DNA of 64,000 bases from the NCBI GenBank assembly GCA_028909515.1, contig GCA_028909515.1_4811.1, one strand, 5' to 3'. Source of the stretch: a phage. Under the pieces are notes generated by a model. It searched no databases, had not been told where the DNA came from, and saw only the letters and a program-made list of their open reading frames with translations. A program made the position numbers and the translations under genes. The first letter of the stretch is position 1; each line of letters begins with the position of its first letter. Shown piece by piece: positions 7,858 to 29,365 of this stretch.

Positions 7858-8439
7858 TCACACCGGAATATCGCCTAAATCGTTATTAACAGCTCTTGCA
7901 ACAGCAGGCGTGTCAATTGAAATTGCGTTTCTGTGAAGGATTACCAAATCAAAAGAAGGGAATGATTCAAACTGCGACATGTCGTCATAGAACTTTTCAT
8001 TGTTGTTCATGTCGACTCTATATACTGAAGCCTGATGCTTTTTAAACCAATCCCTTAAATTAGCCTTGTGGGTTATGAATCTTGCCAAATAAGTCAAAAC
8101 GTCATTAGCCGTAGGCTTTTCTGGATTGCCAGGGACTTCTGGGAATAAGCCGCTAATTTGAAAACGTGTTGCGTATATCTGATCTTCAATATCTTTAAAT
8201 TTGCCATTAACGAATTGAGATTCATCATTGACAAATTCATTCTTTCTCATCGACCAACCGAATGGAACTGAGAATAAAAGGTTAAACCAAATCTGATCAC
8301 CAGTCGGAATGCCCTGCTGAGTCGGTTGGTATTTTTTCTGGACCGGAACAGCAGAAAGGTCTGCACGACTATACGCCGCCAGACCTTCTTCAATTCGCGT
8401 TGCCAGCATGTCAATCAGGTCGACATCTGTCATATACAC
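7858..8439 (-). CDS. hypothetical virion protein
   Basis: 193-aa ORF tiled with neighbours. Confidence 0.45.
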   Translation of the reverse strand: MYMTDVDLIDMLATRIEEGLAAYSRADLSAVPVQKKYQPTQQGIPTGDQIWFNLLFSVPFGWSMRKNEFVNDESQFVNGKFKDIEDQIYATRFQISGLFPEVPGNPEKPTANDVLTYLARFITHKANLRDWFKKHQASVYRVDMNNNEKFYDDMSQFESFPSFDLVILHRNAISIDTPAVARAVNNDLGDIPV

Positions 8440-8827: not shown

Positions 8828-9288
8828 CAGAATACCCCACCAATTTTACGAAATCCTTCGCGCTCTGGAAGCCCACCGAATGACAAGCCGCCAACGGCCA
8901 GTGCTTGAAGAAGCGCCCACAACGCCATGCCATAAGGAGTGCTTGACAGCCAGTATTCCCAGCCATCACTCGCAGGCGGCGCAACTTTGTTCACTGTGAT
9001 GTCACCAATTGTTGCGCCAGTCACGAAGCCGCCTTGTTCAACTCCGTCACCAGAAGACACAGACACTTGCTGGTCTGCGGCTATGCATAAAAGATGAGCC
9101 GTCATATATTCCAATGCCAGCTCCAATTTACTGCCATTTAAAACACGACAAGGACTGTCTTGTGATTCAATAAATTCACATGCCATGTCATAGAATACTT
9201 GAAGTGTTGTGTCAGGAAATTTAACCTGATCGGCAAACTGTGGAAATTTAATTCTGAACTTTTCGTAATCTAATGACATGGCATTCAC
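8824..9288 (-). CDS. hypothetical virion protein (head-tail joining region)
   Basis: 154-aa ORF, 4-nt overlap with downstream gene. Confidence 0.45.
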   Translation of the reverse strand: MNAMSLDYEKFRIKFPQFADQVKFPDTTLQVFYDMACEFIESQDSPCRVLNGSKLELALEYMTAHLLCIAADQQVSVSSGDGVEQGGFVTGATIGDITVNKVAPPASDGWEYWLSSTPYGMALWALLQALAVGGLSFGGLPEREGFRKIGGVFW

Positions 9289-9293
9289 CTTAT

Positions 9294-9758
9294 TTAAACG
9301 CGGAATAAATCATCGTCTTGGTCGCCGCTCAATTTTACCTTGATGCGCTTGTCAGCAGTTTCACGCGTCATAGGCGCAAACGGGTCGTCTGACATGCCGC
9401 GAACTTCTTTAGCGACGGCCTTGTGATTGCCAACAATGTCGTGATTTACGACTTTCACCAAACCTTTTTCAAGATGCTGCTTAAACACGTGATGGTCTTT
9501 AAGATGCTCAAAATCTGCATCGCTTACAACGGTGACGATTCCTTCAGGAGTCCACAAAGGTGCACCATCAGCGCCTTTTGCCATTTCACCAAAGCCGGAA
9601 GTTGCTGAAGTAAGACCAGCGCCGCCTTTGATCAGAATTTGTTTGCGGATATTTGGAAGAGCGCCTGAACCAGCTTTTGCATTCGGGTTTTCTTTCACTT
9701 CCGTATAGAAGGTGTAGTTAACTGACATAGACATAGTTGAAACGATGTATTTTGACAT
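9294..9758 (-). CDS. hypothetical virion protein
   Basis: 154-aa ORF directly downstream of the capsid gene. Confidence 0.45.
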   Translation of the reverse strand: MSKYIVSTMSMSVNYTFYTEVKENPNAKAGSGALPNIRKQILIKGGAGLTSATSGFGEMAKGADGAPLWTPEGIVTVVSDADFEHLKDHHVFKQHLEKGLVKVVNHDIVGNHKAVAKEVRGMSDDPFAPMTRETADKRIKVKLSGDQDDDLFRV

Positions 9759-9873
9759 TTTGTAGTCCTATTTATATAAGCCTCAGATAAGCCCCTACAG
9801 CCCTTGAGGTCTATTGATATGGGGCGAAGCCTTTCGACCACGCCCCATGTGTTTTACTGTGTAATCACAGCAA

Positions 9874-11013
9874 TTAAATACCAGTCATACGGACGACTGC
9901 GAAAGGACGCTTGAGCAGAACGCCTGCTGTTGCGTTTGCGTAGTCTTCAACGTAGCTCTTAGCACGCTTTTCAACGCCCAGAGTCATGAACTTGGTCTGA
10001 ACCAGCTGACTGAATACGGAACCATCATCGCTTGAACCATCGATTGAGGAATCGATGTGATCAGCGTACAGGTATGCCACGTTCAAGAAAGTCGGGTCGC
10101 TGCCAAGTGCGCCGTTGAGTTCCGGTGCAGACTTGATCTTCATCTTCGGATAAGTCTGAGTGATCCAGTCACGTACAGAAATACCGAAGTCAGTGGTGTT
10201 GGACAGCCAATCGATAGAGTTGGTCGGCAGCGCCAGAGTCATGTCAACCTTCTCTGGATCAATCTGGTCCTGAGAGTTCACACGAATTTGACGAACCATC
10301 AAACGGATGTCTGCAGTCACCTGCTGGAAGGTCGCAGTAGCCCAGCCGGAAGTGGTGTTGGAAGTCATCGCCGCTGGCAGGTTTGGATCATTCAGGAAGC
10401 CGAACGTGCGGTTGTTCCCGTTGTACCAACCATAGAAGCCGATTGCGTTACGCATGATTTCCAGAGACACAGCAGCCTGCTGGCGCTTGGTTTCTGCGGA
10501 GTTCAGACGCATCGCAGACGCGCGGCCTTCTTCCAGCATACCAACTGCCATACCCATTTCGCCACGAACGATAGAGCGACGTTCAAAGTTTACGTTCCAG
10601 CTTGCCAGAGGAATAGCGGTGAAATCACCATATTCAACTGCGGTGCCAGCTGGTTCAACGATTCCCTGAACGATTTCTGCATCTTCCCACTGGCCAACGG
10701 TATCAATACCAACCAGCTCGTCGATTTTACGAGCGGCGGTCATGATTTTGACGAAGCCAGGCAACCACTGCTGCAGGAACTGCAACGGGGTCGGGATTGA
10801 CGGAGTGGTCTGCGGCGCAGTAAACGCGGCGTCACCTACGCGGAAAGCGCCTGCACGGTTTAAGTGCTCAATCTGATCACGCACAATCGCGGAATCAAAA
10901 ACAATACCGATACGAGCAAGCTGGGAAACAGCCGCGTCGGTAACGGATTGCATATCAAAAGGGCGCACCTTGCTCGCTGGGAGGCGAGAGTGTGTTTGGC
11001 TAATGCGAGTCAT
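9874..11013 (-). CDS. major capsid protein
   Basis: 379-aa ORF after scaffold and decoration-like genes; strongly host-optimal codon usage (CTG, CGT, GGT, ACC, CCG); followed by a 115-bp stem-loop-rich spacer. Confidence 0.7.
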
Positions 11014-11027
11014 TATTCACCTGCCTA

Positions 11028-11645
11028 TTAACGAGTCAATTGTACAATGGTATAAGTGGAAGACTGGACGCTTGGGCCGGAAAGGGCAATAGCAGTCGGG
11101 TCAATCACGATACCGCCTGGAATGGCAACCATGCCAGTTGGCAGTGAGCCAGTATAGGCGATAATTGCACCGATAGGCAAGTTGTTCGGGTTGTTGCCGC
11201 TGGAAATGCCTTTAGGTACATAAGCGAGCAGGTCGCCGTAGTTCAGCGTCTGCGGACTGGTGCCAGGGTTGAATACTTCAACTACGAGGCCCGTGCACAT
11301 ATCGTAAAACTCGCCTTCGCTATATTGAGGCAGAACCATGCTGGCACCCAAAGGACCAGTAGAGTTGCCATACAGAGCGTAACGCTTGCTGTTGCCAAGG
11401 ATGCCATAATAATTGGTGCCGCCCAGTTCAACTTCAAAGTCCTGCGCGCCCAATGTTTTGGTTTGACCAGTACCCATCAAGGATACGTCAGCCTTAAAAC
11501 CGAACACACGGCTGATGGCGTTTACGTTTGCGCCTTCGTTGGCGTTGGCAATTCGGCCTGGCTTCCCACGCTGTGGGCCGTCGCGAACGATGTCGCCAGG
11601 AAAGCCAGTTGTATATTGACGGCCTACACTAGTTTGGAAAGTCAT
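11028..11645 (-). CDS. putative head decoration or accessory capsid protein
   Basis: Gly/Thr/Ser-rich ORF between scaffold and capsid genes; start placed at internal Met ('MTFQTSVG') abutting the scaffold stop. Confidence 0.4.
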   Translation of the reverse strand: MTFQTSVGRQYTTGFPGDIVRDGPQRGKPGRIANANEGANVNAISRVFGFKADVSLMGTGQTKTLGAQDFEVELGGTNYYGILGNSKRYALYGNSTGPLGASMVLPQYSEGEFYDMCTGLVVEVFNPGTSPQTLNYGDLLAYVPKGISSGNNPNNLPIGAIIAYTGSLPTGMVAIPGGIVIDPTAIALSGPSVQSSTYTIVQLTR

Positions 11646-11647
11646 GT

Positions 11648-13069
11648 TTATTCCCCTTTCAACCAAGCTTCAAATGCTTCGTCAGTTGCTGCAGAATCCG
11701 CAGCGGCCTTTTGTTTTGCGACTACACGCTGTTTTTGACCGTGTTCAACGCCGCGCAGATAGTTATCCACCACGTCAAACTCAGCACCATCAACGCACTT
11801 CAAGCCTAACTTTTTAGCGCCATATTTCGCTACGGACTTGGAATCCATAGTTGCATGATCAAAGGCACCAACAACTTTAGACAGGCGCTGGTAGAGGCTA
11901 TTCTTACGAGCAGAATCAGCGTAGAAAGCAGCAACTGCTGAATCAGATGCCATTGAGTGTTCCCCTTTTGCTGGACCTGGCGACGCTTTCGCCGCTTTTG
12001 TCGGTTTGTCATCTTTTTCGACCGAAGCCCCCTTTACGTTGCTGTTTTGCAGGCCGCTAACCACATCTTCAGCTTTGTCGCAAGGTGATACATCTTCAGC
12101 CTTGACTTCAACTTCTTCTTCGTCTTTGACTTCGGCTTCAACTTCTTCTTCATCACCTACCGCGCCACCTTTCAGTTTTGCAATAAGCGCTTCGATTTGG
12201 CTGATCAATTGCGGAAGTTCGCCGCCAGCGTGAGATTCAGTTTCAACTTCAAACTTCTCTTCACCTTCTGGGGTTTCTTCTGCTTCTGCCTTGACTTCTG
12301 GATCAACCATTACTTCTTCACGATTTTCGGTTGAGTCCTTCTCTTCTGCTTTCACTTCAACTTCATCCTGATGAGCAGCTTCAGTGCTCTCTTCGTTCAG
12401 AAATTGTTCGAGCGCAGGGATCAGTGATTTCAGCTGTTCAACAGCATTATCACGCGCTTTACCTTTTAACGGTTTTGGCATGTCTAAATCCTCGTTGGAT
12501 GGTGTTACAGTCGTCAAACAAAGATGGTCAAAGCAACGACCATCCAGCACCCGTGCACCTGGTACTCGACCAACGTCCACGAGAGCAATGTGGTTGCCGC
12601 GAAGAGTTGTCTGCACCACTTCATACGGCTGCCCGTCAAACTCTCCAGACTGTATGATGAATTCACAGTCATAGCCCAAAGACAAGTCAACCTTTCCAGA
12701 ATCGATGGCCTTCTTCAGACGACGGCTAAACACTTTAAGGTCGCCGCGCATCCATGGCTTGTCATAATAAACATTGCCAGTCAGAACGCCATCAACGCCA
12801 TACTCTTCGGGTGCTGTGTTATCCTCATCACCTTCAAATCCAGAAAGCATTTCGTGATTGTCGATGAAAGGGATATTTTTGAATGAATCTATCGCTTCGG
12901 GGTCTTTCACCGCTGACTCAGGGCGATAGACTTTTACGATGCGATTCGGATCACCATCAAGACCAACTTGACCAGCAGAATAATCAAAAATGCCAAATGA
13001 CGAAATTGGACAACCCATAATCGTCAAGAATCCATTTTTGTCAATTTCGCGTGCCGTTTGCATTCGCAT
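11648..13069 (-). CDS. scaffold protein, possibly fused to an N-terminal prohead-protease-like domain
   Basis: 473 aa; globular N-terminal ~190 aa, then long acidic helical region ('EEVEAEVKDEEEVEVKAED'); positioned before decoration and capsid genes. Confidence 0.55.
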   Translation of the reverse strand: MRMQTAREIDKNGFLTIMGCPISSFGIFDYSAGQVGLDGDPNRIVKVYRPESAVKDPEAIDSFKNIPFIDNHEMLSGFEGDEDNTAPEEYGVDGVLTGNVYYDKPWMRGDLKVFSRRLKKAIDSGKVDLSLGYDCEFIIQSGEFDGQPYEVVQTTLRGNHIALVDVGRVPGARVLDGRCFDHLCLTTVTPSNEDLDMPKPLKGKARDNAVEQLKSLIPALEQFLNEESTEAAHQDEVEVKAEEKDSTENREEVMVDPEVKAEAEETPEGEEKFEVETESHAGGELPQLISQIEALIAKLKGGAVGDEEEVEAEVKDEEEVEVKAEDVSPCDKAEDVVSGLQNSNVKGASVEKDDKPTKAAKASPGPAKGEHSMASDSAVAAFYADSARKNSLYQRLSKVVGAFDHATMDSKSVAKYGAKKLGLKCVDGAEFDVVDNYLRGVEHGQKQRVVAKQKAAADSAATDEAFEAWLKGE

Positions 13070-13159
13070 CCACCCTCAAATAAGTATTGTGTATTATATC
13101 TAATGAAAAAAACTTAGGCAAACAATAATTATGGTTTGAATATGTATAACAACCGATAT

Positions 13160-13455
13160 AGCCGCGCCTTTATTAGTGTGATACGGATGATACGGATAAA
13201 ATGAGGCGTATTTTTATCCGTATCGGTGTATAAGCCGCGCTATCACTGGTGTGCTACGGATGATACGGATGATACGGATACTTTTCATATATAAGAGTTT
13301 ATAAAAAAATAAAATTAAATTAGATATATAATTTTAAATTAATTTATTTGAATTCCTATATAGTACGGCGGCAACGCGTATCATCCGTATCATCCGTAAG
13401 ATTCTTTTGAAAACAACAACTTACTTGATACGGATGATACGTCATTATACGTATA
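13160..13455. repeat. iteron-flanked AT-rich element, copy 1
   Basis: Direct and inverted copies of TACGGATGATACGGAT (13179-13198, 13216-13226, 13255-13280, inverted 13377-13400, 13427-13445) around an ~85-bp AT-rich core; homologous to 29030..29365. Confidence 0.7.
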
Positions 13456-13632
13456 AAACTTGCGGCAATCCTTTGCCGATGAATTCAGTGAATATTAAAT
13501 AGCACTCCTGCCACTAAAACGCCAATCAACATCGAGTCATAAACAGCCCATTTCCAAGAAAGCAAAGAGTTGCAATTAATATTTCGCACTTTAACATAAC
13601 GTGACTGAATAATCTTTTGCATAACTTCCTCT

Positions 13633-14646
13633 TTAGTTCAGCTTAATTGCGGTGATCTGTCCGTAAACGGTAGATGTCAACGCGTCGGTGCACTGATAGT
13701 TTAAATACACATTACCAGGCGCGGCAAGAGTAATTACTTTTGTTGGGATGTTGCCGCCGAAGCGACCTGCAGCCCGAATGCCAGCTGACATGGCAAATGC
13801 ATCATCCGTAATATCTGAATTGCTTGTTGACAATTTGACTGTAATTCCGGTATTCGCTTGAACGCCTGCTGTCGCGACAGTCAACTGACTTGCTGTTACA
13901 AGCCATTTCCCTGCAGGAAGGTTTAAGGTTGCCAGATTGACCAAAGTTGTTGGAGGATTGCTGACGCTATTAGTGGCATTCTGGACGGTACTTGCTGCTG
14001 CATTAAGCACACCAGACCCATCAATTGATAGAGTTGTACCGACCTTTACGCCGCCTAAAGTAGATGCTGAGGCAATCGGCAATGAGTATTGGGTGACGCT
14101 GATTGTTCCATCGCCTGCGACGCTTATTCCGGTGCCTATTTTGACGCCACCAAGAACGGAGGCTGTTGCCGCTGGTAACGTGTATTGGTTGCCGCTGGTT
14201 TTCACAACTTTGACCGCGACAGCGTTTTTCGACCCTCCAGACTCCATGCCTATAATCACTGCTTCGCCAAAAGCAATGGTGATTGTTGATGCAGTCAAGC
14301 CAGTTTGAACGTCTGTGATGTTCATCTTAGGCACAGACAATGTCAGGTTAGGCTTGCTGGTCGAATCGCCATCATTGCCAATCATAAAGAATTGACCTAC
14401 TGAGTTATACCCTGATGCAAGCGGCGGGCTCAGTGGAACAATCAAGTTTTTATCAGAAGTGAATTCTGAGACAATTGCCAAGCCATTAGCATACACTGCA
14501 GGCAAGACTGGAGTTTGTCCAGATAGAGGGAATGTGTTGATTGGTATCGTCATAATGACCTCAGATAATTGGTATTTTCCTGCATTTGCAGTGTATTGCC
14601 CATCCAGGAGGACCGATGTCACCCTTTTTGAACTTAAGTTCTCCAC
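13633..14646 (-). CDS. structural protein with phage tail-fibre-type repeats
   Basis: 337 aa; two internal repeats 'Y(T/S)LP(A/I)A(T/S)AS(V/T)LGGVK(I/V)GT' typical of fibre proteins; sits between head-morphogenesis and scaffold genes. Confidence 0.55.
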   Translation of the reverse strand: MENLSSKRVTSVLLDGQYTANAGKYQLSEVIMTIPINTFPLSGQTPVLPAVYANGLAIVSEFTSDKNLIVPLSPPLASGYNSVGQFFMIGNDGDSTSKPNLTLSVPKMNITDVQTGLTASTITIAFGEAVIIGMESGGSKNAVAVKVVKTSGNQYTLPAATASVLGGVKIGTGISVAGDGTISVTQYSLPIASASTLGGVKVGTTLSIDGSGVLNAAASTVQNATNSVSNPPTTLVNLATLNLPAGKWLVTASQLTVATAGVQANTGITVKLSTSNSDITDDAFAMSAGIRAAGRFGGNIPTKVITLAAPGNVYLNYQCTDALTSTVYGQITAIKLN

Positions 14647-15412
14647 CTACTTCCCATAAGCGTTTGTCATCAAGCTTGAATCTCATGCCGTCGACGTGCT
14701 CATGTGATATTCGCGGCTCTTTGCCTGCTCCTGAATGCGCCCACTCAAATTCCTCAACGCCATTCTGTCGCATCCTTTCATCACTTAATACGCAATAAAG
14801 TTTGCTCGTTTGGTCTTTGGCGATAAGGTCTACGCGTTTTGCAGAGAAGTGTTTTACATTCCTTAGTGCCGCCTGAATGCCTGACGTGCCTTGTTGCGCT
14901 GGGTCTGGCGAAGTCAGCGAAAGCATCACCGCTTCGTACACCCTGTTGTGAATATCTTCGCCAACCTTAGTCACTAAAGTCGTGTTGAACGTCTCGCTTG
15001 TTTTAAGAGTGTTCTCAACGAATTTATTATATGTGGCTTTTGGCGCTTCTATTCCTGCAGATTTAAGACTTGCAAATGTAGCAGAAGTGGCACCCTTTTC
15101 AACTGACTTGATGAAATCTGCGGCAATCTTTGACCCGACACGGGCGAAAGCCTTTGCCCATTTCAGTTGCAGTCGCTTCATCAAGGTCTGAAAAGTTGAA
15201 TCAGCAGAGTCTTGCGCAAAGAACTTTTTAACCTGCTTCTTTTCAAGCCACTCAGCAATTCCTGCTTGATAGTCGTCAATCATCGCATAGCAAAGACCTT
15301 TCATCTCACGACGATAGGCCATCGCAATAGCATTGGATGGGATTATCGGACTGCCGCGCCCGATTCTATCGGGTGAGCGGCGTTCACGTTTTTTCGAAGC
15401 TTTAAAAGCCAT
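14561..15412 (-). CDS. head morphogenesis protein (Mu F / SPP1 gp7-like)
   Basis: C-terminal 'GWAIHCKCR' resembles the Mu F minor head protein motif; start set at 'MAFKASKK' (1 nt after portal stop); the ORF track allows an earlier start at 15475. Confidence 0.5.
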   Translation of the reverse strand: MAFKASKKRERRSPDRIGRGSPIIPSNAIAMAYRREMKGLCYAMIDDYQAGIAEWLEKKQVKKFFAQDSADSTFQTLMKRLQLKWAKAFARVGSKIAADFIKSVEKGATSATFASLKSAGIEAPKATYNKFVENTLKTSETFNTTLVTKVGEDIHNRVYEAVMLSLTSPDPAQQGTSGIQAALRNVKHFSAKRVDLIAKDQTSKLYCVLSDERMRQNGVEEFEWAHSGAGKEPRISHEHVDGMRFKLDDKRLWEVGGELKFKKGDIGPPGWAIHCKCRKIPII

Positions 15413-15413
15413 A

Positions 15414-17789
15414 TCAACCTTGCTTCGGTGAATTAGTAGGATTATTGAGTGCTCCATATGCTTGAGAGCAATCACCCTTCAACCACTCCTTGAATGAGTT
15501 TACATCCAATTCGTGAATTGAGTCGAAGCCGTTCCAACCGTTACCAAATGATGCTTGATAAGCTTCTTTCGCTTCTTCTGCTGAATCAAATCCAAGCATA
15601 CACTTGTGTTCATCAAATTCGCCAGAATAATTATCATTTTGGTTAATGATGAATACTTTAGGCGACTTCATATTTGGCCCAACAAAGCAGTCGACTTCAT
15701 CACCATCAGCACCCTTGGTGCCTTTGATGAATCCGTAGTGGTGCGGCATCTTAACTGCCCATTCACCATCAAGGCTGTTTCCCCTACGAATGCTGTTGCG
15801 AGGATTCTCAATACCAAGAATCATCCCGTGCAACTTCATCTTAGGTAGCGATGCGGCATCCATCTTCCCTACGTTGTGTCGCAAGTTGACGACATTTCCT
15901 TTTACGCTTGGAAGCGTGGACGGTTGCACCGACCTTGCATCTTTTTGAGGGTCAAAATCCACATCCTGACCTTCTTTAAGGTAATAGTCAGCAATACCCT
16001 CCAGACCTTCTTTCAGTTGCGTTAGGACATCAACGTGATGGCTTGATTCATCATCGGTATCATCCATGTTAATCTCAACTGGTGCTCTGTCAGGGTTTTC
16101 TGCCAACTCACCACGCGCGGCACCTTCCGGCATAATACCAGTTTCGCTGTAGAACTGGCCGCCCATCTTGACAACGTCAGCCTTAGCCTGTTCAATATCG
16201 GCCTTGCCTTGCAGAACTTCACCAGCAGACTTGCCAAGCAACGCCATATTCTCTGGAGACATCCCTGGGGTTTCTTCTGCCGCGTCTTCCGGCAAACGGT
16301 TGTAGCCACTGTTTTTGTCGTCCTTGATGCGGTCGCGCTCTTCATCAGGGGAGATGACGCCAGCATCAATGAGAGTCTTGCCAGTGTTCGCTCGTTTGTC
16401 GTTAATCTCTGCAAGCTGAGTAGCAGTAAGTGAACCAACTGGCTCCCATGCCACTTTAACGTCGACTTCAACACCTTCAGATTTCAAAAGGATTTTATAG
16501 TGACGGTCAAGAATCTTCGTCAAATCGTGCTGCTGACAAGTTTCCAATTCTTCGTGATAGCTGACCATTTCGAACTCACCAGTGGCGTTAAAGCCTTTAG
16601 GTGAAGTCCCTAACAGTTTTGTCGACGGAACTTTTGCGATTGCGGCCACCAACTGGTACTGGTTCATGATGATGCTGTCGAAGTCTGACAAGTTGATGTC
16701 AAACTGGTCCATCTCTTCTTTCTGACCAAGCACTTTTACCGCATAGTTGTCGCGGTACTTAATCCACATCATCAAACGTTCGGCAAACGACCGCTCATTG
16801 GCAATCGCCTTGTCAACGTCGGTCCGCAGCGTGGTTGTACGCTTAGACATCGCCAGCAATGGCGCTTCGTTAGCGGTACGTTCAGCGGCATAGATACGTT
16901 CATAAATCTGCTGAGTCAGAGGAATGCCGCCGTATATATAAGTCGGCTTGAGAATATCAGCTGGCTCATCGTTGCGCAAGATGATTAGGTGGCTGCGATG
17001 ATAACGCTGTCCACTGATCACCCAGTATTCTGGATCATAGAAATGCTGTGACGCAGGGTCTGCAGTGTTTTCAGACGTCAAGAATGGCATCATCCAATAA
17101 GGGTCAACCTGAATGATTCCCTTATAAGACCCCTTTGTCACACCATCGATGTTAAAAGGTTTGCTATAATATTCTGGGTCATCGCTGCGCACATCAAATA
17201 TGATGACACGGATGCCAAAAATATTCTTGAATCGTTCGGCTTCAACTAAGTGCTCTTTGATGTTAAATTCTTTATCAATTTGCTTCAGGCGTTCGCTTGC
17301 CTGCACAGACAATTCTGATTCAGAGCTTGATTTTACTTCCCAACCTTTACGTACTGCATCGCGGCCTACCATTGAGCAAGCCTTATTCACCAGCCAGTGC
17401 TGCGCGATAATTGCGCAAGCTTGATAGCCGATGAATGATTGTGACAAGTACCAGTTTTGCAACTGAATAGGGACTGTGTATGGATTCACCTGCCCTTCTG
17501 AACTGATGTTCTTCAAAGCATTATCCATAACTTTTTTGGATACGGTTGCTGAATCTACTGAGCGACCTTTGATGATTGCAACACCGTCTCCGTTGATATC
17601 AGGCTCATATAAAGGGAAGTCATCAACCGTTTTAAAGGTCGGTCGATTGCTTTCAGTCTTTTCCCAGCGTTGACCGCTGCCGCGCCTTTCAAGGCGTTCA
17701 AACGGTGCCAATGGGTCGCCTGGCGGCATCTCCGCTGGTTCGGCTTCTGGTTGCGTCTTCTCCCAGAGTTTTATGCCAAGAATTTTCAT
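15414..17789 (-). CDS. portal protein with C-terminal extension
   Basis: Large ORF immediately downstream of terminase; start set at 'MKILGIK' behind an AGGTGG RBS; last ~150 aa carry pyrophosphatase-like motifs (see findings). Confidence 0.7.
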   Translation of the reverse strand: MKILGIKLWEKTQPEAEPAEMPPGDPLAPFERLERRGSGQRWEKTESNRPTFKTVDDFPLYEPDINGDGVAIIKGRSVDSATVSKKVMDNALKNISSEGQVNPYTVPIQLQNWYLSQSFIGYQACAIIAQHWLVNKACSMVGRDAVRKGWEVKSSSESELSVQASERLKQIDKEFNIKEHLVEAERFKNIFGIRVIIFDVRSDDPEYYSKPFNIDGVTKGSYKGIIQVDPYWMMPFLTSENTADPASQHFYDPEYWVISGQRYHRSHLIILRNDEPADILKPTYIYGGIPLTQQIYERIYAAERTANEAPLLAMSKRTTTLRTDVDKAIANERSFAERLMMWIKYRDNYAVKVLGQKEEMDQFDINLSDFDSIIMNQYQLVAAIAKVPSTKLLGTSPKGFNATGEFEMVSYHEELETCQQHDLTKILDRHYKILLKSEGVEVDVKVAWEPVGSLTATQLAEINDKRANTGKTLIDAGVISPDEERDRIKDDKNSGYNRLPEDAAEETPGMSPENMALLGKSAGEVLQGKADIEQAKADVVKMGGQFYSETGIMPEGAARGELAENPDRAPVEINMDDTDDESSHHVDVLTQLKEGLEGIADYYLKEGQDVDFDPQKDARSVQPSTLPSVKGNVVNLRHNVGKMDAASLPKMKLHGMILGIENPRNSIRRGNSLDGEWAVKMPHHYGFIKGTKGADGDEVDCFVGPNMKSPKVFIINQNDNYSGEFDEHKCMLGFDSAEEAKEAYQASFGNGWNGFDSIHELDVNSFKEWLKGDCSQAYGALNNPTNSPKQG

Positions 17790-17951
17790 TGTTAACGCCA
17801 CCTGACAGTGAAAGGGAATCAATCTATATTATAAATATTCATGTGTTTGTAAGCAAATGATATGTATAGTAATCATAAATAGTTCATAAAATATTTTGCT
17901 TTTGTATCATTTTGAGTTATATTTTAGTTAACCAAACGAAAGGAGATTGAA

Positions 17952-18368
17952 ATGAGCACAACAATTGTATTTGTCGTCCTTCATCAAGGCGAAGTAGTAA
18001 ACGTATGCGAATATGAAGAGCTGGCAAAAGCCACTGCTGCGCGATATGAAGGTGCCACAGTTGACCCTTGGATTTTGGATGCGCGAAACGTGTTGCAGGC
18101 GACCATGGATGAATGGCTTTTAGGTCGCAAGGTGTATCCGGTTGAAAACATCGAATCCATTCAAGGCGAAACGGTATACTTTGAAGATGAATGCGTTCGC
18201 GGCATTGGTAAATTTATGGGATTGTGCCCATCTTCATCCAAAAATAAATTTTATCGTATTCAAGTTGAAGAAAACGATATGTTTGACAAAGTAACGCGCT
18301 CGATTGTTCCTGGCGGCGGCACTCCAATCTTTATGGCAGAATCAGACATCAAGGGGATTATCAAATGA
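17952..18368 (+). CDS. hypothetical protein
   Basis: 138-aa ORF with strong RBS AAAGGAG; opposite strand to the flanking terminase and portal genes. Confidence 0.55.
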   Translation: MSTTIVFVVLHQGEVVNVCEYEELAKATAARYEGATVDPWILDARNVLQATMDEWLLGRKVYPVENIESIQGETVYFEDECVRGIGKFMGLCPSSSKNKFYRIQVEENDMFDKVTRSIVPGGGTPIFMAESDIKGIIK

Positions 18369-18604
18369 GAACGTTAACCGAACTCGATGTTTTGAAAGAC
18401 GTTGCAGCCGCGCTAGGCGTAGAAGTATCCGAAAAGGCGACACTAGGTGCTTTGCGTCGGGATTTACTCGAAGCCGTTGACCGCAACGATTTTGACCGTA
18501 AGTGTATGCAAAAGAAGATTCGTCAGGCGGTAAGAGCGGGTAAGCGATTCCGTGCCAGGTCATTTGCTGCAAGAAAACTCGACCTTCAGCACGGAATGCT
18601 TTGA
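18365..18604 (+). CDS. hypothetical protein
   Basis: 79-aa basic ORF, 4-nt overlap with upstream gene. Confidence 0.5.
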   Translation: MRTLTELDVLKDVAAALGVEVSEKATLGALRRDLLEAVDRNDFDRKCMQKKIRQAVRAGKRFRARSFAARKLDLQHGML

Positions 18605-18607
18605 TTG

Positions 18608-20068
18608 TTAAAGGTTAGAGAAGAAGCCGGATGCTGCAACGATTGGTTTCATCAATGCCATGATTGCTGCGTCCGCTTTGTTAGGTGATTTAACTCCACG
18701 CTTTGCCATGTCCTTTTTGGATTCAACTTTGAACTTGCCAAGAACAGACGTATCTTTGCGCGGCGCTGACATCTCAAAAAGAAACGTCTCAATCTCTTCA
18801 GTAGTCCAAGCTGGAATTCCAAGTTCTGGTATGCCATCTGTGTCAATTGAAATCAACTCATCAGTCGGATATACGGCCTGCCCAGTCGCATACTCGTATG
18901 TCTTTCTGAATCTCTCTGCAATCTCAGTCCACTTTTGCGCTTTTATGTTTGCGAAATGGTCTTTATTGAGTATTTCAACGTGTGGTAGTTCAAGAAAAAC
19001 GTCATCAGGATCATCAACAGACCCTTGCGCGTTGAACGCATTAAATTCGATTCTTGGAAATGATGGATTTTCATGTATCGCATACTCGTTTAGTTCATCA
19101 AATTTTGAACCAGCAAAAGCGCCGACACCGATGGCGTCATAAGTTATAGAAGCGCCAAATGTAAGCGCATCTTTCCAAACTCCGCTTGCCGATTTCAACA
19201 ATTCATCTTCCAGACCTTCCCATGTCTTGATGCCGCGCAATACGTTTCCTGTAACGAATGCAGTGGCGTTAAGGTCGTCGCCATCGTCCGCTACGTCAAA
19301 GCCTATACGGTTAGACCCTGACAAACTCCAACCCAGCGTAGGGTGTTTGTGGAGGTTAAGCGCGGCCTTAACGAATGCGCGGTTGATTACAGATTTATCG
19401 CCGCCAGTCTTCGGCACGCCGCCATAAACGTGCTCTGCCTTTTTCGGGTCACGCTCGTACATGCCTGCAATAACGTCCAGCATTGTTTGCGACAAGAATG
19501 GATTGTCTTGCCAGTTTATCTTTTTGACAATGGCATTCTTCGGCGGTCGCATGACAAAGTTTTGATAGACGAAATCGGCCTCTTCATCAGGGTTAAAGAT
19601 AATCCATATTTCGGACCCTTCTTTACGGATTGTCGGCTCAATAATGTCCCACTGTTCTTCAGTAAGCGCGTGCGCTTCTTCCAGCCAAAGAACATCAACG
19701 CCTTCTGTTGATTTGATTTCATCAACGTTACGTGCGATACCATAAAATAGAAATTCAGATTTAGTTCTTTTGTGTTCGATAGAGTTCTTTAATAAATTGA
19801 ACTCATCTTTAAAATCAGAAATCTCTATTTTGTCTTTTAATAGAGTATATACAGATTCAGAAATCTTGTTCTGGAATTGTCGAACGCAAAGGAATTTTAA
19901 TTTGAAGTTTGCCGCCAAATAAATAGCAAAACCAGCGGCATCGTGCGATTTGGAAGATGCACGACCGCCGTATATTACTTTGTATCGCGCTTTTGTCTTC
20001 CAGACTTCTTTTAAAGCAGGATTCAACTGGTACATGAATTTCCAATTATGTGTTAATATTTTATTCAT
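18608..20068 (-). CDS. terminase large subunit
   Basis: 486 aa; N-terminal ATPase region with Walker A-like 'YGGRASSKSHDAAGF' and Walker B-like 'DVLWLEEAHAL'; C-terminal nuclease-like region; precedes portal. Confidence 0.8.
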   Translation of the reverse strand: MNKILTHNWKFMYQLNPALKEVWKTKARYKVIYGGRASSKSHDAAGFAIYLAANFKLKFLCVRQFQNKISESVYTLLKDKIEISDFKDEFNLLKNSIEHKRTKSEFLFYGIARNVDEIKSTEGVDVLWLEEAHALTEEQWDIIEPTIRKEGSEIWIIFNPDEEADFVYQNFVMRPPKNAIVKKINWQDNPFLSQTMLDVIAGMYERDPKKAEHVYGGVPKTGGDKSVINRAFVKAALNLHKHPTLGWSLSGSNRIGFDVADDGDDLNATAFVTGNVLRGIKTWEGLEDELLKSASGVWKDALTFGASITYDAIGVGAFAGSKFDELNEYAIHENPSFPRIEFNAFNAQGSVDDPDDVFLELPHVEILNKDHFANIKAQKWTEIAERFRKTYEYATGQAVYPTDELISIDTDGIPELGIPAWTTEEIETFLFEMSAPRKDTSVLGKFKVESKKDMAKRGVKSPNKADAAIMALMKPIVAASGFFSNL

Positions 20069-29029: not shown

Positions 29030-29365
29030 TGTACTGTTTGATACGTATAAAAGAAATCCATCCCTTTCGCCGCTTGCTATGCAAATCAATGACTTAGCCG
29101 CTGCTGGCTGGTTGAAGCGTATCATGACGTATCATCCGTATTGCCGCAAGTCTTTGTTTTTACTTATATCTTACGGATGATACGTATAAATATAAGTTTA
29201 GTATAAGTATGAGGATGTAGAAAAAAATTAATTTAAATTAATTCAAAATGGAGTTAATTAATTTTCTGGAATTCTATATATATTATGTTTGCACCCGTAT
29301 CATCCGTATCAGCGTATTTTTCCTTATAAATCAATAGCCCAATGATACGTCATGATACGTATGAA
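29030..29365. repeat. iteron-flanked AT-rich element, copy 2
   Basis: TACGGATGATACG-type iterons at about 29117-29140 (inverted), 29171-29187, 29294-29314 (inverted), 29342-29362 around an AT-rich core sharing 'AAAAAAATTAATTTAAATTAATT' and 'GAATTCTATATA' with copy 1. Confidence 0.7.

What the first reader, a model, noticed from the sequence alone, without database searches (positions are those of the whole stretch)
13633..14646. Fibre-repeat protein encoded inside the head module, bounded by the iteron element
A 337-aa protein with two tail-fibre-type repeats (Y-[TS]-L-P-x-A-[TS]-A-S-x-L-G-G-V-K-x-G-T) sits between head-morphogenesis and scaffold genes, where a protease or scaffold is expected. 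It is followed by the 560-bp iteron-containing intergenic region. It could be a head fibre or decoration fibre, or a fibre gene acquired as a moron.
Basis: partly seen in the sequence, partly recalled or inferred. Interest (0 to 1): 0.45.

Follow-up and report, generated by a model that had tools for sequence, protein, structure and literature searches.

The report
Accessory virion fibre in head operon
This is a real, conserved gene of an E. coli Wifcevirus phage for a short three-part fibre protein that is found in purified virus particles and probably decorates the capsid, but its place on the particle has never been shown and the gene is already annotated in public genomes.

Summary
The window is a Wifcevirus (E. 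coli myovirus, 97.5% identical to phage Bas101). The repeat-bearing gene is real, but the 337-aa ORF is a mechanical artefact. The true start is ATG 14553, giving 306 aa and 30.8 kDa. The first 31 codons overlap the end of the MuF gene.

The protein has three parts:
- an N-terminal beta-sandwich (aa 1-122) with a T4 gp9/gp10 "XD"-like fold;
- two 32-aa repeats carrying YxLPxA[TS]xSxLGGVK, a motif also present once in the phi29 head fibre;
- a family-specific all-beta C-terminal domain.

The gene sits 7 nt after MuF. It is followed by a 45-aa membrane ORF, a terminator-like hairpin and the iteron region. The protease/scaffold gene is present downstream, so nothing is replaced.

Pbunavirus PB1 lacks the gene, so it is an old insertion. 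Divergent relatives keep an N-domain fibre in the same slot, with 2-4 repeats or different C-termini. Within the genus it is under purifying selection (dN/dS 0.03).

Published mass spectrometry found the orthologue in CsCl-purified virions at 73% coverage.

A capsid fibre is the best reading (about 0.5). A tail or neck fibre is not excluded. Some distant homologues carry signal peptides, which is unexplained. Modest interest.

The parts
13633..14553 (-). Fibre gene proper: 306 codons plus stop (MTIPINTF...AIKLN), 30.8 kDa
   Evidence: ATG 14553 with GAGG 5 nt upstream. Same start in GenBank Bas101_0006 and vBEco4M7_38 and in homologues at 49-57% identity. Mass computed.
14554..14646 (-). 5' extension of the mechanical GTG ORF; not part of the protein. 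It overlaps the 3' end of the MuF gene in another frame.
   Evidence: MuF ORF ends at 14561. No homologue carries these 31 residues.
14188..14553 (-). N-terminal domain, aa 1-122: all-beta sandwich with a T4 gp9/gp10 'XD'-like fold. Proposed trimerisation and anchor module.
14092..14187 (-). Shaft repeat 1, aa 123-154 (QYTLPAATASVLGGVKIGTGISVAGDGTISVT)
   Evidence: PF11133 hit over aa 139-178 of the 337-aa ORF, which is aa 108-147 of the 306-aa protein. phi29 gp8.5 alignment.
13996..14091 (-). Shaft repeat 2, aa 155-186 (QYSLPIASASTLGGVKVGTTLSIDGSGVLNAA)
   Evidence: Copy number is 2, 3 or about 4 in homologues.
13636..13995 (-). C-terminal domain, aa 187-306: predicted all-beta distal knob, specific to the Wifcevirus-like clade
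   Evidence: Found only in Wifcevirus among 50,697 phage records. Weak match to the C-end of PHROG 11393 'tail fiber protein', E 4e-4. No Pfam or PDB sequence match. Low-confidence AF2 strands. Highest dN/dS of the three parts, 0.065.
14559..14562 (-). GAGG ribosome-binding site, overlapping the MuF stop codon (TGA 14563..14561)
   Evidence: Read directly from the sequence.
14561..15412 (-). Upstream gene: MuF-like head morphogenesis protein (283 aa from ATG 15412), 7 nt from the fibre start
   Evidence: PF04233 and phrog_324. GenBank annotation.
13485..13622 (-). Conserved 45-aa ORF with a C-terminal hydrophobic helix, 10 nt after the fibre stop. Resembles PB1 gp21 in length, position and a shared (K)WA-YD/FAAVD motif followed by a hydrophobic helix.
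   Evidence: Annotated in Bas101_0007 and vBEco4M7_39. Side-by-side sequences with PB1 gp21 and the small ORFs of L002-L004, compared by eye without an alignment score.
13463..13478 (-). Terminator-like hairpin (CGGCAAAGGATTGCCG plus a T-rich tail) closing the portal-MuF-fibre-small ORF unit
   Evidence: consensus scan only.
13180..13442 (.). Iteron cluster: tandem 9-nt GATACGGAT units in both orientations around an AT-rich core. Lies between the fibre unit and the protease/scaffold promoter-like site (13121..13093).
   Evidence: 8 hits against 0 expected.
11648..13069 (-). Downstream gene: DUF2213/Pa193_gp24-type protease/scaffold, showing that no head gene is replaced
   Evidence: PF09979 4.6e-35 and phrog_3778 1.8e-171.

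Best explanation
The gene encodes a short homotrimeric accessory fibre of the virion, most likely attached to the capsid as a head fibre or capsid spike.

Shown:
- It is a 306-aa protein translated from ATG 14553, placed at the end of the portal-MuF gene string.
- It has three modules: an XD-like beta-sandwich, two LPxA..LGGVK shaft repeats, and an all-beta C-terminal domain.
- Its orthologues are abundant in CsCl-purified virions.
- It is an insertion relative to Pbunavirus.
- It is conserved under purifying selection.

Inferred:
- The N-terminal domain trimerises and docks the fibre on the capsid surface, possibly on the cement-protein or three-fold positions of the T=9-type shell.
- The repeats form a short shaft whose length is set by repeat number.
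- The C-terminal knob binds a conserved bacterial surface component reversibly. This would raise the dwell time and adsorption of the particle before the two tail fibres engage the O-antigen.
- Like phi29 gp8.5 it would be dispensable for assembly.
For: Gene and start.

Virion presence: vB_Eco4M-7_38 gave 8 peptides, 72.9% coverage and score 3353.7. Only 14 tryptic sites exist. ECML-117 PI34_gp36 was also detected. Both samples were CsCl-purified phage (PMC7048862).

Head-module linkage:
- The gene starts 7 nt after MuF, with no promoter-like site between them. A terminator-like hairpin appears only after the following small ORF.
- The same slot holds the homologue in three relatives at 49-57% identity.
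- It also holds very distant N-domain homologues: P0124 directly after MuF in L016, and P0127 just upstream of DUF2213-cement-MCP in L015.
- N-domain identity follows head-gene divergence: 59/40/40% against MuF 80/59/60%. C-domain identity does not: 53/65/66%.

Other support:
- The N-domain occurs once in the window and not in the tail fibres.
- The two Wifcevirus tail fibres are encoded in the tail locus (PMC11990801).
- The best Foldseek PDB match of the N-domain is the 295-aa trimeric capsid spike gp52 of phage Pa223, a protein of similar size and layout (bioRxiv 10.1101/2025.06.11.659172).
- The shaft motif is shared with phi29 head fibre gp8.5.
- dN/dS is 0.03, and 0.009 in the repeats.
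Against: No experiment localises the protein on the particle. The published MS list also contains non-structural proteins (helicase, glyoxalase), so presence is not proof of attachment.

The N-domain fold is best known from baseplate-attached proteins: T4 gp9 and gp10, CBA120 TSP4, and KP1 gp9 and the proximal long tail fibre.

The shaft motif is common in proteins sitting in tail-fibre contexts or joined to tail-fibre domains.

One relative (L010) encodes an N-domain-plus-repeats protein upstream of the terminase gene rather than after MuF.

Four distant homologues have textbook Sec signal peptides ahead of the N-domain. That is hard to square with cytoplasmic assembly onto capsids.

No head fibres are mentioned in the Wifcevirus TEM descriptions I could read.

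The phi29 capsid-binding base and helical stem are absent.
Confidence: 0.5

Rival explanations
1. It is a third tail-associated fibre (baseplate, collar or neck whisker) that merely happens to be encoded in the head operon. The XD-like N-domain docks on a baseplate or neck protein, as T4 gp9/gp10 and CBA120 TSP4 do.
Against: There is no sequence membership in PF07880 or any tail family. The gene and its distant N-domain relatives stay with portal-MuF / protease-MCP, not with baseplate genes. The Pbunavirus relatives share the homologous head-to-sheath gene set but lack this gene (shared E217-type Pfam families). The tail-fibre locus already supplies two fibres. Automatic annotations derive from the repeat motif only.
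Confidence: 0.27
2. It is not a stably attached virion part. It is a fibre-like late protein that is released or exported, for example to act on the cell surface or block receptors, and it co-purifies with particles. The signal-peptide-bearing homologues would reveal the ancestral role.
For: P0121, P0123, P0124 (full ORF MKRFFRLVAMLVIASASTAWA|Q) and the L017 fragment have n-h-c signal peptides that obey the -3/-1 rule. The MS list also includes non-structural proteins. A small membrane ORF follows the gene.
Against: The window protein and all close homologues start directly with the folded domain and have no hydrophobic leader. It gave 73% coverage and the third-highest score in CsCl-banded phage. 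Its fibre architecture and head-operon position also argue against this.
Confidence: 0.1
3. It is a recently acquired moron or decaying passenger gene with no role in the particle.
For: It is absent from Pbunavirus PB1 at the equivalent slot, and it is inserted ahead of a retained gp20/gp21-like backbone in L002. It is the fastest-evolving gene of the head module.
Against: It has no own promoter or terminator. GC equals that of its neighbours. It is present in all 29 Wifcevirus records and in relatives at 49-57% identity. dN/dS is 0.03. The product is detected.
Confidence: 0.05

Closest known systems
phi29 head fibre gp8.5 (Pfam PF11133; PDB 3QC7, 6QVK)
   Same: Both are proteins of about 300 aa (280 for gp8.5), and gp8.5 is a homotrimeric accessory fibre. 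Both share the Y-S-L-P-A-A-T-x-x-x-L-G-G-V-K motif; gp8.5 has one copy at residues ~229-250. The Pfam score is above threshold. Both genes lie among head genes.
   Different: Only about 40 residues align. The gp8.5 capsid-binding base (two small beta-barrels, residues 1-110) and its helix-turn-helix supercoil stem have no counterpart here (PMC6542822). This protein has an XD-like sandwich, two motif repeats and a different C-terminal domain.
Pseudomonas phage Pa223 capsid spike gp52 (PDB 9NY6)
   Different: There is no detectable sequence similarity. gp52 anchors through a 40-residue N-terminal arm that is absent here. gp52 has no LPxA..GGVK repeats. Its gene lies near tail and ejection genes of a podovirus. 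The location of the present protein is not shown.
T4 gp9/gp10-type 'XD' attachment domains (T4 gp9 1QEX, gp10 2FL8, CBA120 TSP4 7REJ, Solidus gp83)
   Different: These are baseplate or branched-tailspike components encoded in tail modules. There is no Pfam PF07880 match, and identity is 11-16%.
Pbunavirus (PB1/E217/Pa193) head module
   Same: The surrounding genes are homologous and in the same order: portal with a C-terminal extension (InPase domain shown for the window and for L002-L004, L010 and L016; not tested in PB1), MuF, small ORFs, long intergenic region, DUF2213 protease/scaffold, cement protein, MCP.
   Different: PB1 has only gp20 (68 aa) and gp21 (46 aa) in the slot and no fibre gene.

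Membership tests
phi29 gp8.5 head fibre family (PF11133) | Whole-protein Pfam score above the gathering threshold | tested here: met
   27.8 bits against a 24.6 cut-off, but only profile positions 213-252 of 277 align.
phi29 gp8.5 head fibre family (PF11133) | N-terminal pseudo-hexagonal base (two beta-barrels, residues 1-110) that binds the capsid protein | tested here: not met
phi29 gp8.5 head fibre family (PF11133) | [quoted passage not shown] | tested here: not met
   No sequence alignment to that region. The predicted secondary structure is almost entirely beta, though the full-length model is low confidence.
phi29 gp8.5 head fibre family (PF11133) | Bound to the capsid exterior at (quasi-)three-fold positions | not testable with these tools
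   Needs cryo-EM or immuno-EM. Only virion presence is documented.
T4 gp9/gp10-like baseplate attachment proteins (PF07880) | XD-type beta-sandwich fold | tested here: met
T4 gp9/gp10-like baseplate attachment proteins (PF07880) | Sequence membership in PF07880 | tested here: not met
   No Pfam hit for the N-domain even at E<=10, other than a chance DUF5801 match.
T4 gp9/gp10-like baseplate attachment proteins (PF07880) | Encoded with, and attached to, baseplate components | tested here: not met
   For the encoding half: the gene and its distant relatives lie with portal-MuF / protease-MCP. Physical attachment is not testable here.
Pa223 gp52-type capsid spike | Structural similarity of the body domain | tested here: met
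Pa223 gp52-type capsid spike | About 40-residue N-terminal attachment arm that contacts six capsid subunits | tested here: not met
   The folded domain starts at residue 2 with pLDDT 93 and has no arm. Feature definition.
Pa223 gp52-type capsid spike | TNF-fold C-terminal knob | tested here: inconclusive
   The C-domain is predicted all-beta, but the model is low confidence (pLDDT 42-71 across the C-domain blocks) and there is no sequence match.
Moron (autonomously expressed acquired gene) | Own promoter and terminator flanking the gene | tested here: not met
   The start is 7 nt after the MuF stop, with the RBS overlapping that stop. There is no promoter-like site between them. The only terminator-like site lies after the next ORF.
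Moron (autonomously expressed acquired gene) | Absent from otherwise syntenic relatives | tested here: met
   Absent from PB1. L002 shows the insertion in front of gp20/gp21 homologues.
Moron (autonomously expressed acquired gene) | Deviant base composition | tested here: not met
   GC 0.476 against 0.464-0.470 for neighbours and 0.463 for the window.

The most novel reading that the evidence does not exclude
The slot right after MuF in PB1-like and Wifcevirus-like myoviruses is a cassette site for a so far undescribed family of fibres. The family is defined by a conserved XD-like N-domain plus one LPxA..GG(V/I) motif, with freely exchanged shafts and tips. Within this family some members are virion-bound (no leader; found in virions) and others are Sec-exported (signal peptides in P0121, P0123, P0124 and L017). 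The same anchor module would then serve both a capsid fibre and a secreted or cell-surface protein.
Probability: 0.12. Interest if true: 0.65.

Novelty: new variant of a known kind. Interest (0 to 1): 0.35.

Why it matters
Wifceviruses are candidates for biocontrol of E. coli O157 and are now part of the BASEL reference collection. Their host recognition has been discussed only in terms of the two tail fibres.

A conserved, abundant third fibre that is not in the tail locus could contribute to adsorption, host range or particle stability. It would also be a handle for display or engineering. The N-terminal domain has no Pfam family. Together with the conserved insertion slot, it gives a simple way to find such fibres in related phages.

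None of this overturns current understanding. Capsid fibres and spikes are a known class, and two GenBank records already call this gene a head fibre.

Tried and rejected
1. The search for homologous proteins with the N-domain alignment and with the C-domain alone returned nothing. It did not even return the 97%-identical P0001, so these searches failed their positive control and say nothing about distribution. The exhaustive HMMER search replaced the first.

2. The full-length AF2 model from 5 sequences was poor (pLDDT 53.7) and was not used for fold search. The C-domain fold therefore stays unresolved.

With A2 it found only Wifceviruses. P0131 and P0128 were not found in IMG/VR. The single metagenome scan gave one 1.6-kb fragment.

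4. I tested whether the unidentified capsid fibre of Agrobacterium phage 7-7-1 could be a relative. Its head module is of a different type (HK97-like portal, protease and MCP), and no N-domain hit appeared in the parts fetched. Rejected; it is an analogy only.

5. Profile searches of the N- and C-domains against PDB sequences gave only chance hits.

6. Rfam on 12900-14800 gave only sub-threshold chance matches.

7. The idea that the gene replaces a protease or scaffold was rejected, because that gene is present.

8. Using MS score as a copy-number proxy was considered and dropped. The tail fibre gp27 scores as high per residue as the cement protein.

Full report
**What the window is.** Positions 9000-20000 are 97.5% identical to Escherichia phage Bas101. 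They are 93-97% identical to 28 other records of the genus Wifcevirus, E. coli/Shigella myoviruses of about 68 kb.

On the minus strand the gene order is:
- large terminase, 18608-20068;
- portal with a C-terminal InPase domain, 15414-17822;
- MuF-like head morphogenesis protein, 14561-15412;
- the gene in question;
- a 45-aa ORF;
- a long AT-rich region with iterons;
- the DUF2213/Pa193_gp24-type protease/scaffold, 11648-13069;
- an E217 gp24-type cement protein;
- the major capsid protein.

**Check of the observation.** They belong to two adjacent 32-aa units at 14187..14092 and 14091..13996, which are 53% identical in protein and 50% in DNA.

The 337-aa length is an artefact of taking the longest ORF. 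The first 31 codons run through the last 86 nt of the MuF gene in another frame. An ATG at 14553 is preceded by GAGG, which overlaps the MuF stop codon. Every annotated orthologue and every divergent homologue starts at that methionine. The protein is therefore 306 aa and 30.8 kDa.

The repeat is more than chance. It is above the Pfam gathering score for PF11133. It aligns to residues 200-254 of phi29 gp8.5 in the PDB. It probably accounts for most of the 867 database hits. Its copy number changes from 2 to 3 to about 4 among full-length homologues.

**Anatomy.** There are three modules.

1. Residues 1-122. An exhaustive HMMER search of 1.84 billion representatives with this domain alone found 15 proteins. 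In the clear single-domain hits the domain lies at the extreme N-terminus of fibre-like proteins of 182-647 aa. The conserved signature is Y21, N23, F31, (E/Q)FYxIxNxGDxxxKPxLT and FGE. No Pfam family matches it.

2. Two shaft repeats carrying the LPxA[TS]xSxLGGVK motif. The motif is a general fibre element:
   - It occurs once in the phi29 head fibre.
   - It occurs in proteins joined to PF07880, PF12571 or PF13884.
   - It occurs in phiRSL1 and Erwinia phage proteins annotated as tail fibres.
   - Two repeat-only hits that I located lie in tail-fibre-like contexts.

3. Residues 187-306. This is a predicted all-beta domain found only in Wifceviruses among cultured phages. Its only outside match is a weak one to the C-end of a tail-fibre PHROG. 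I could not obtain a reliable structure for it.

**Genomic context and history.** The fibre gene starts 7 nt after MuF. It is followed after 10 nt by a 45-aa ORF with a hydrophobic C-terminus. A terminator-like hairpin comes only then, at 13478..13463. A promoter-like site at 13121..13093 precedes the protease/scaffold gene. The arrangement suggests that the fibre is expressed with portal and MuF.

Three metagenomic phages whose fibre is 49-57% identical keep the gene in the same slot. Pseudomonas phage PB1 belongs to the genus that the BASEL authors name as the distant relative of Wifcevirus (PMC11990801). PB1 has the same backbone but only two small ORFs, gp20 and gp21, in the slot. L002 still has a clear gp20 homologue and a gp21-like ORF downstream of its fibre gene. 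The window's 45-aa ORF resembles gp21 (comparison by eye). The fibre gene is therefore an insertion immediately after MuF, older than the 50%-identity split.

The very distant N-domain homologues point the same way:
- P0124 lies directly after MuF in a TerL / portal-InPase / MuF phage contig (L016).
- P0127 lies just upstream of DUF2213-cement-MCP in L015, flanked by two further large ORFs, one with YadA-head repeats.
- One exception, P0103 (N-domain plus two repeats only), lies upstream of the terminase gene of a related phage.

N-domain identity falls in step with the head genes: 59/40/40% for L003/L002/L004, against MuF 80/59/60% and portal 81/67/68%. C-domain identity does not: 53/65/66%. 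This is what one expects if the N-domain is the part that contacts the particle and the C-domain is the exchangeable tip.

Within the genus the gene is the most variable of the head module, at 95.8-100% protein identity against 97.6-99.9% for its neighbours. It is still under strong purifying selection. dN/dS is 0.031 overall: 0.018 for the N-domain, 0.009 for the repeats and 0.065 for the C-domain. GC is the same as in its neighbours.

**Is the product made and in particles?** Necel et al. (PMC7048862) analysed CsCl-purified vB_Eco4M-7 and ECML-117 by LC-MS/MS. vB_Eco4M-7_38 is the orthologue (95.8% identical). It gave 8 peptides, 72.9% coverage and score 3353.7, the third highest in the table. 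ECML-117 PI34_gp36 gave 3 peptides. With only 14 tryptic sites that coverage is close to the maximum. The same lists contain a helicase and other non-structural proteins, so this is good evidence but not conclusive evidence of a structural role.

**Interpretation.** The data establish a functional, conserved, virion-associated fibre-like protein. They do not establish where on the particle it sits.

In favour of the capsid:
- the tight and evolutionarily persistent linkage of the N-domain to the portal-MuF / protease-MCP block;
- its absence from the tail locus, which already encodes the two Wifcevirus tail fibres (PMC11990801);
- the similarity in size, layout and one domain's fold to the Pa223 capsid spike.

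In favour of the tail or neck:
- the XD fold is typical of baseplate adaptors.

Against any simple picture: four distant homologues carry canonical Sec signal peptides ahead of the N-domain. The full L016 ORF begins MKRFFRLVAMLVIASASTAWA|Q. The window protein has none.

I put the capsid fibre at about 0.5, a tail or neck fibre at about 0.27, a non-attached or exported protein at about 0.1, and a functionless moron at about 0.05.

**Comparison with known families.** It is not a member of the phi29 gp8.5 family in any strict sense. Only the ~40-residue motif region aligns. The capsid-binding base and the helical stem that define gp8.5 (PMC6542822) are absent. The Pfam hit, and the "head fiber", "tail fiber" and "tail connector" labels in GenBank, all derive from the motif. 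By fold it resembles XD-domain fibres and the Pa223 spike, without sequence membership.

It is best described as a new variant of the known class of accessory phage fibres and capsid spikes. Interest is modest. The class is known and the gene is already annotated. The location is untested, the N-domain family is undescribed, and the signal-peptide relatives are a real loose end.

Noticed in passing
window 13180-13442 and window 29127-29360: The 9-nt iteron GATACGGAT occurs in tandem, in both orientations, around an AT-rich core. It has a second, clearly paralogous cluster about 16 kb away, in a GC-poor (0.35) region where GC skew changes sign. The 16-mer gives 8 hits at up to 2 mismatches against 0 expected. 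The same 9-mer survives in the equivalent intergenic region of the 57%-identity relative L003. This could be an origin or an array of regulator-binding sites.
   Followed up: partly
L016 9974-11800; P0121, P0123; L017 1316-1630: Distant homologues of the N-terminal domain begin with canonical Sec-type signal peptides (MKRFFRLVAMLVIASASTAWA|Q, ...GNVFA|Q, ...FVVA|Q, ...GARA|A). This holds even though the L016 gene sits directly after MuF in a phage head module. It is unexplained for a presumed virion protein.
   Followed up: partly
window 13485-13622 (- strand); L002 about 8030-8400; L006 6277-6620: The 45-aa membrane ORF after the fibre gene resembles PB1 gp21 in size, position and motif pattern. 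L002 also keeps a clear PB1 gp20 homologue between its fibre gene and that ORF, whereas Wifcevirus has lost gp20. The function of both small proteins is unknown.
   Followed up: partly
window 15414-17822 (- strand): The portal protein carries a C-terminal inorganic-pyrophosphatase-like domain (PF18823 InPase, E 4e-46). The domain is also seen in the relatives L002-L004, L010 and L016. PHROG matches place the same domain inside very large virion, DarB-like and endolysin-annotated proteins.
   Followed up: no
L015 28-4401: A distant relative has three consecutive large ORFs in the slot upstream of the protease/scaffold gene: a 640-aa protein with YadA-head repeats, the N-domain fibre P0127 with about six motif repeats, and an unassigned 402-aa ORF. 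The slot can apparently hold several fibre-like genes.
   Followed up: partly
L010 8285-8833: A PB1/Wifcevirus-like phage encodes a 182-aa protein made only of the N-domain plus two motif repeats, with no distal domain. It lies immediately upstream of the large terminase gene, where a small terminase would be expected.
   Followed up: no
window 17952-18604 (+ strand): Two small genes on the opposite strand sit between the portal and terminase genes. In the relatives L002-L004 this spot instead holds DUF2786/DUF7168 and trypsin-like genes, so it is a second variable spot in the head region.
   Followed up: no
(tool behaviour): The word-indexed protein search returned no hits for 120-aa domain queries, although a 97%-identical protein is in the database. 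Negative results from that tool with short queries should not be trusted.
   Followed up: yes
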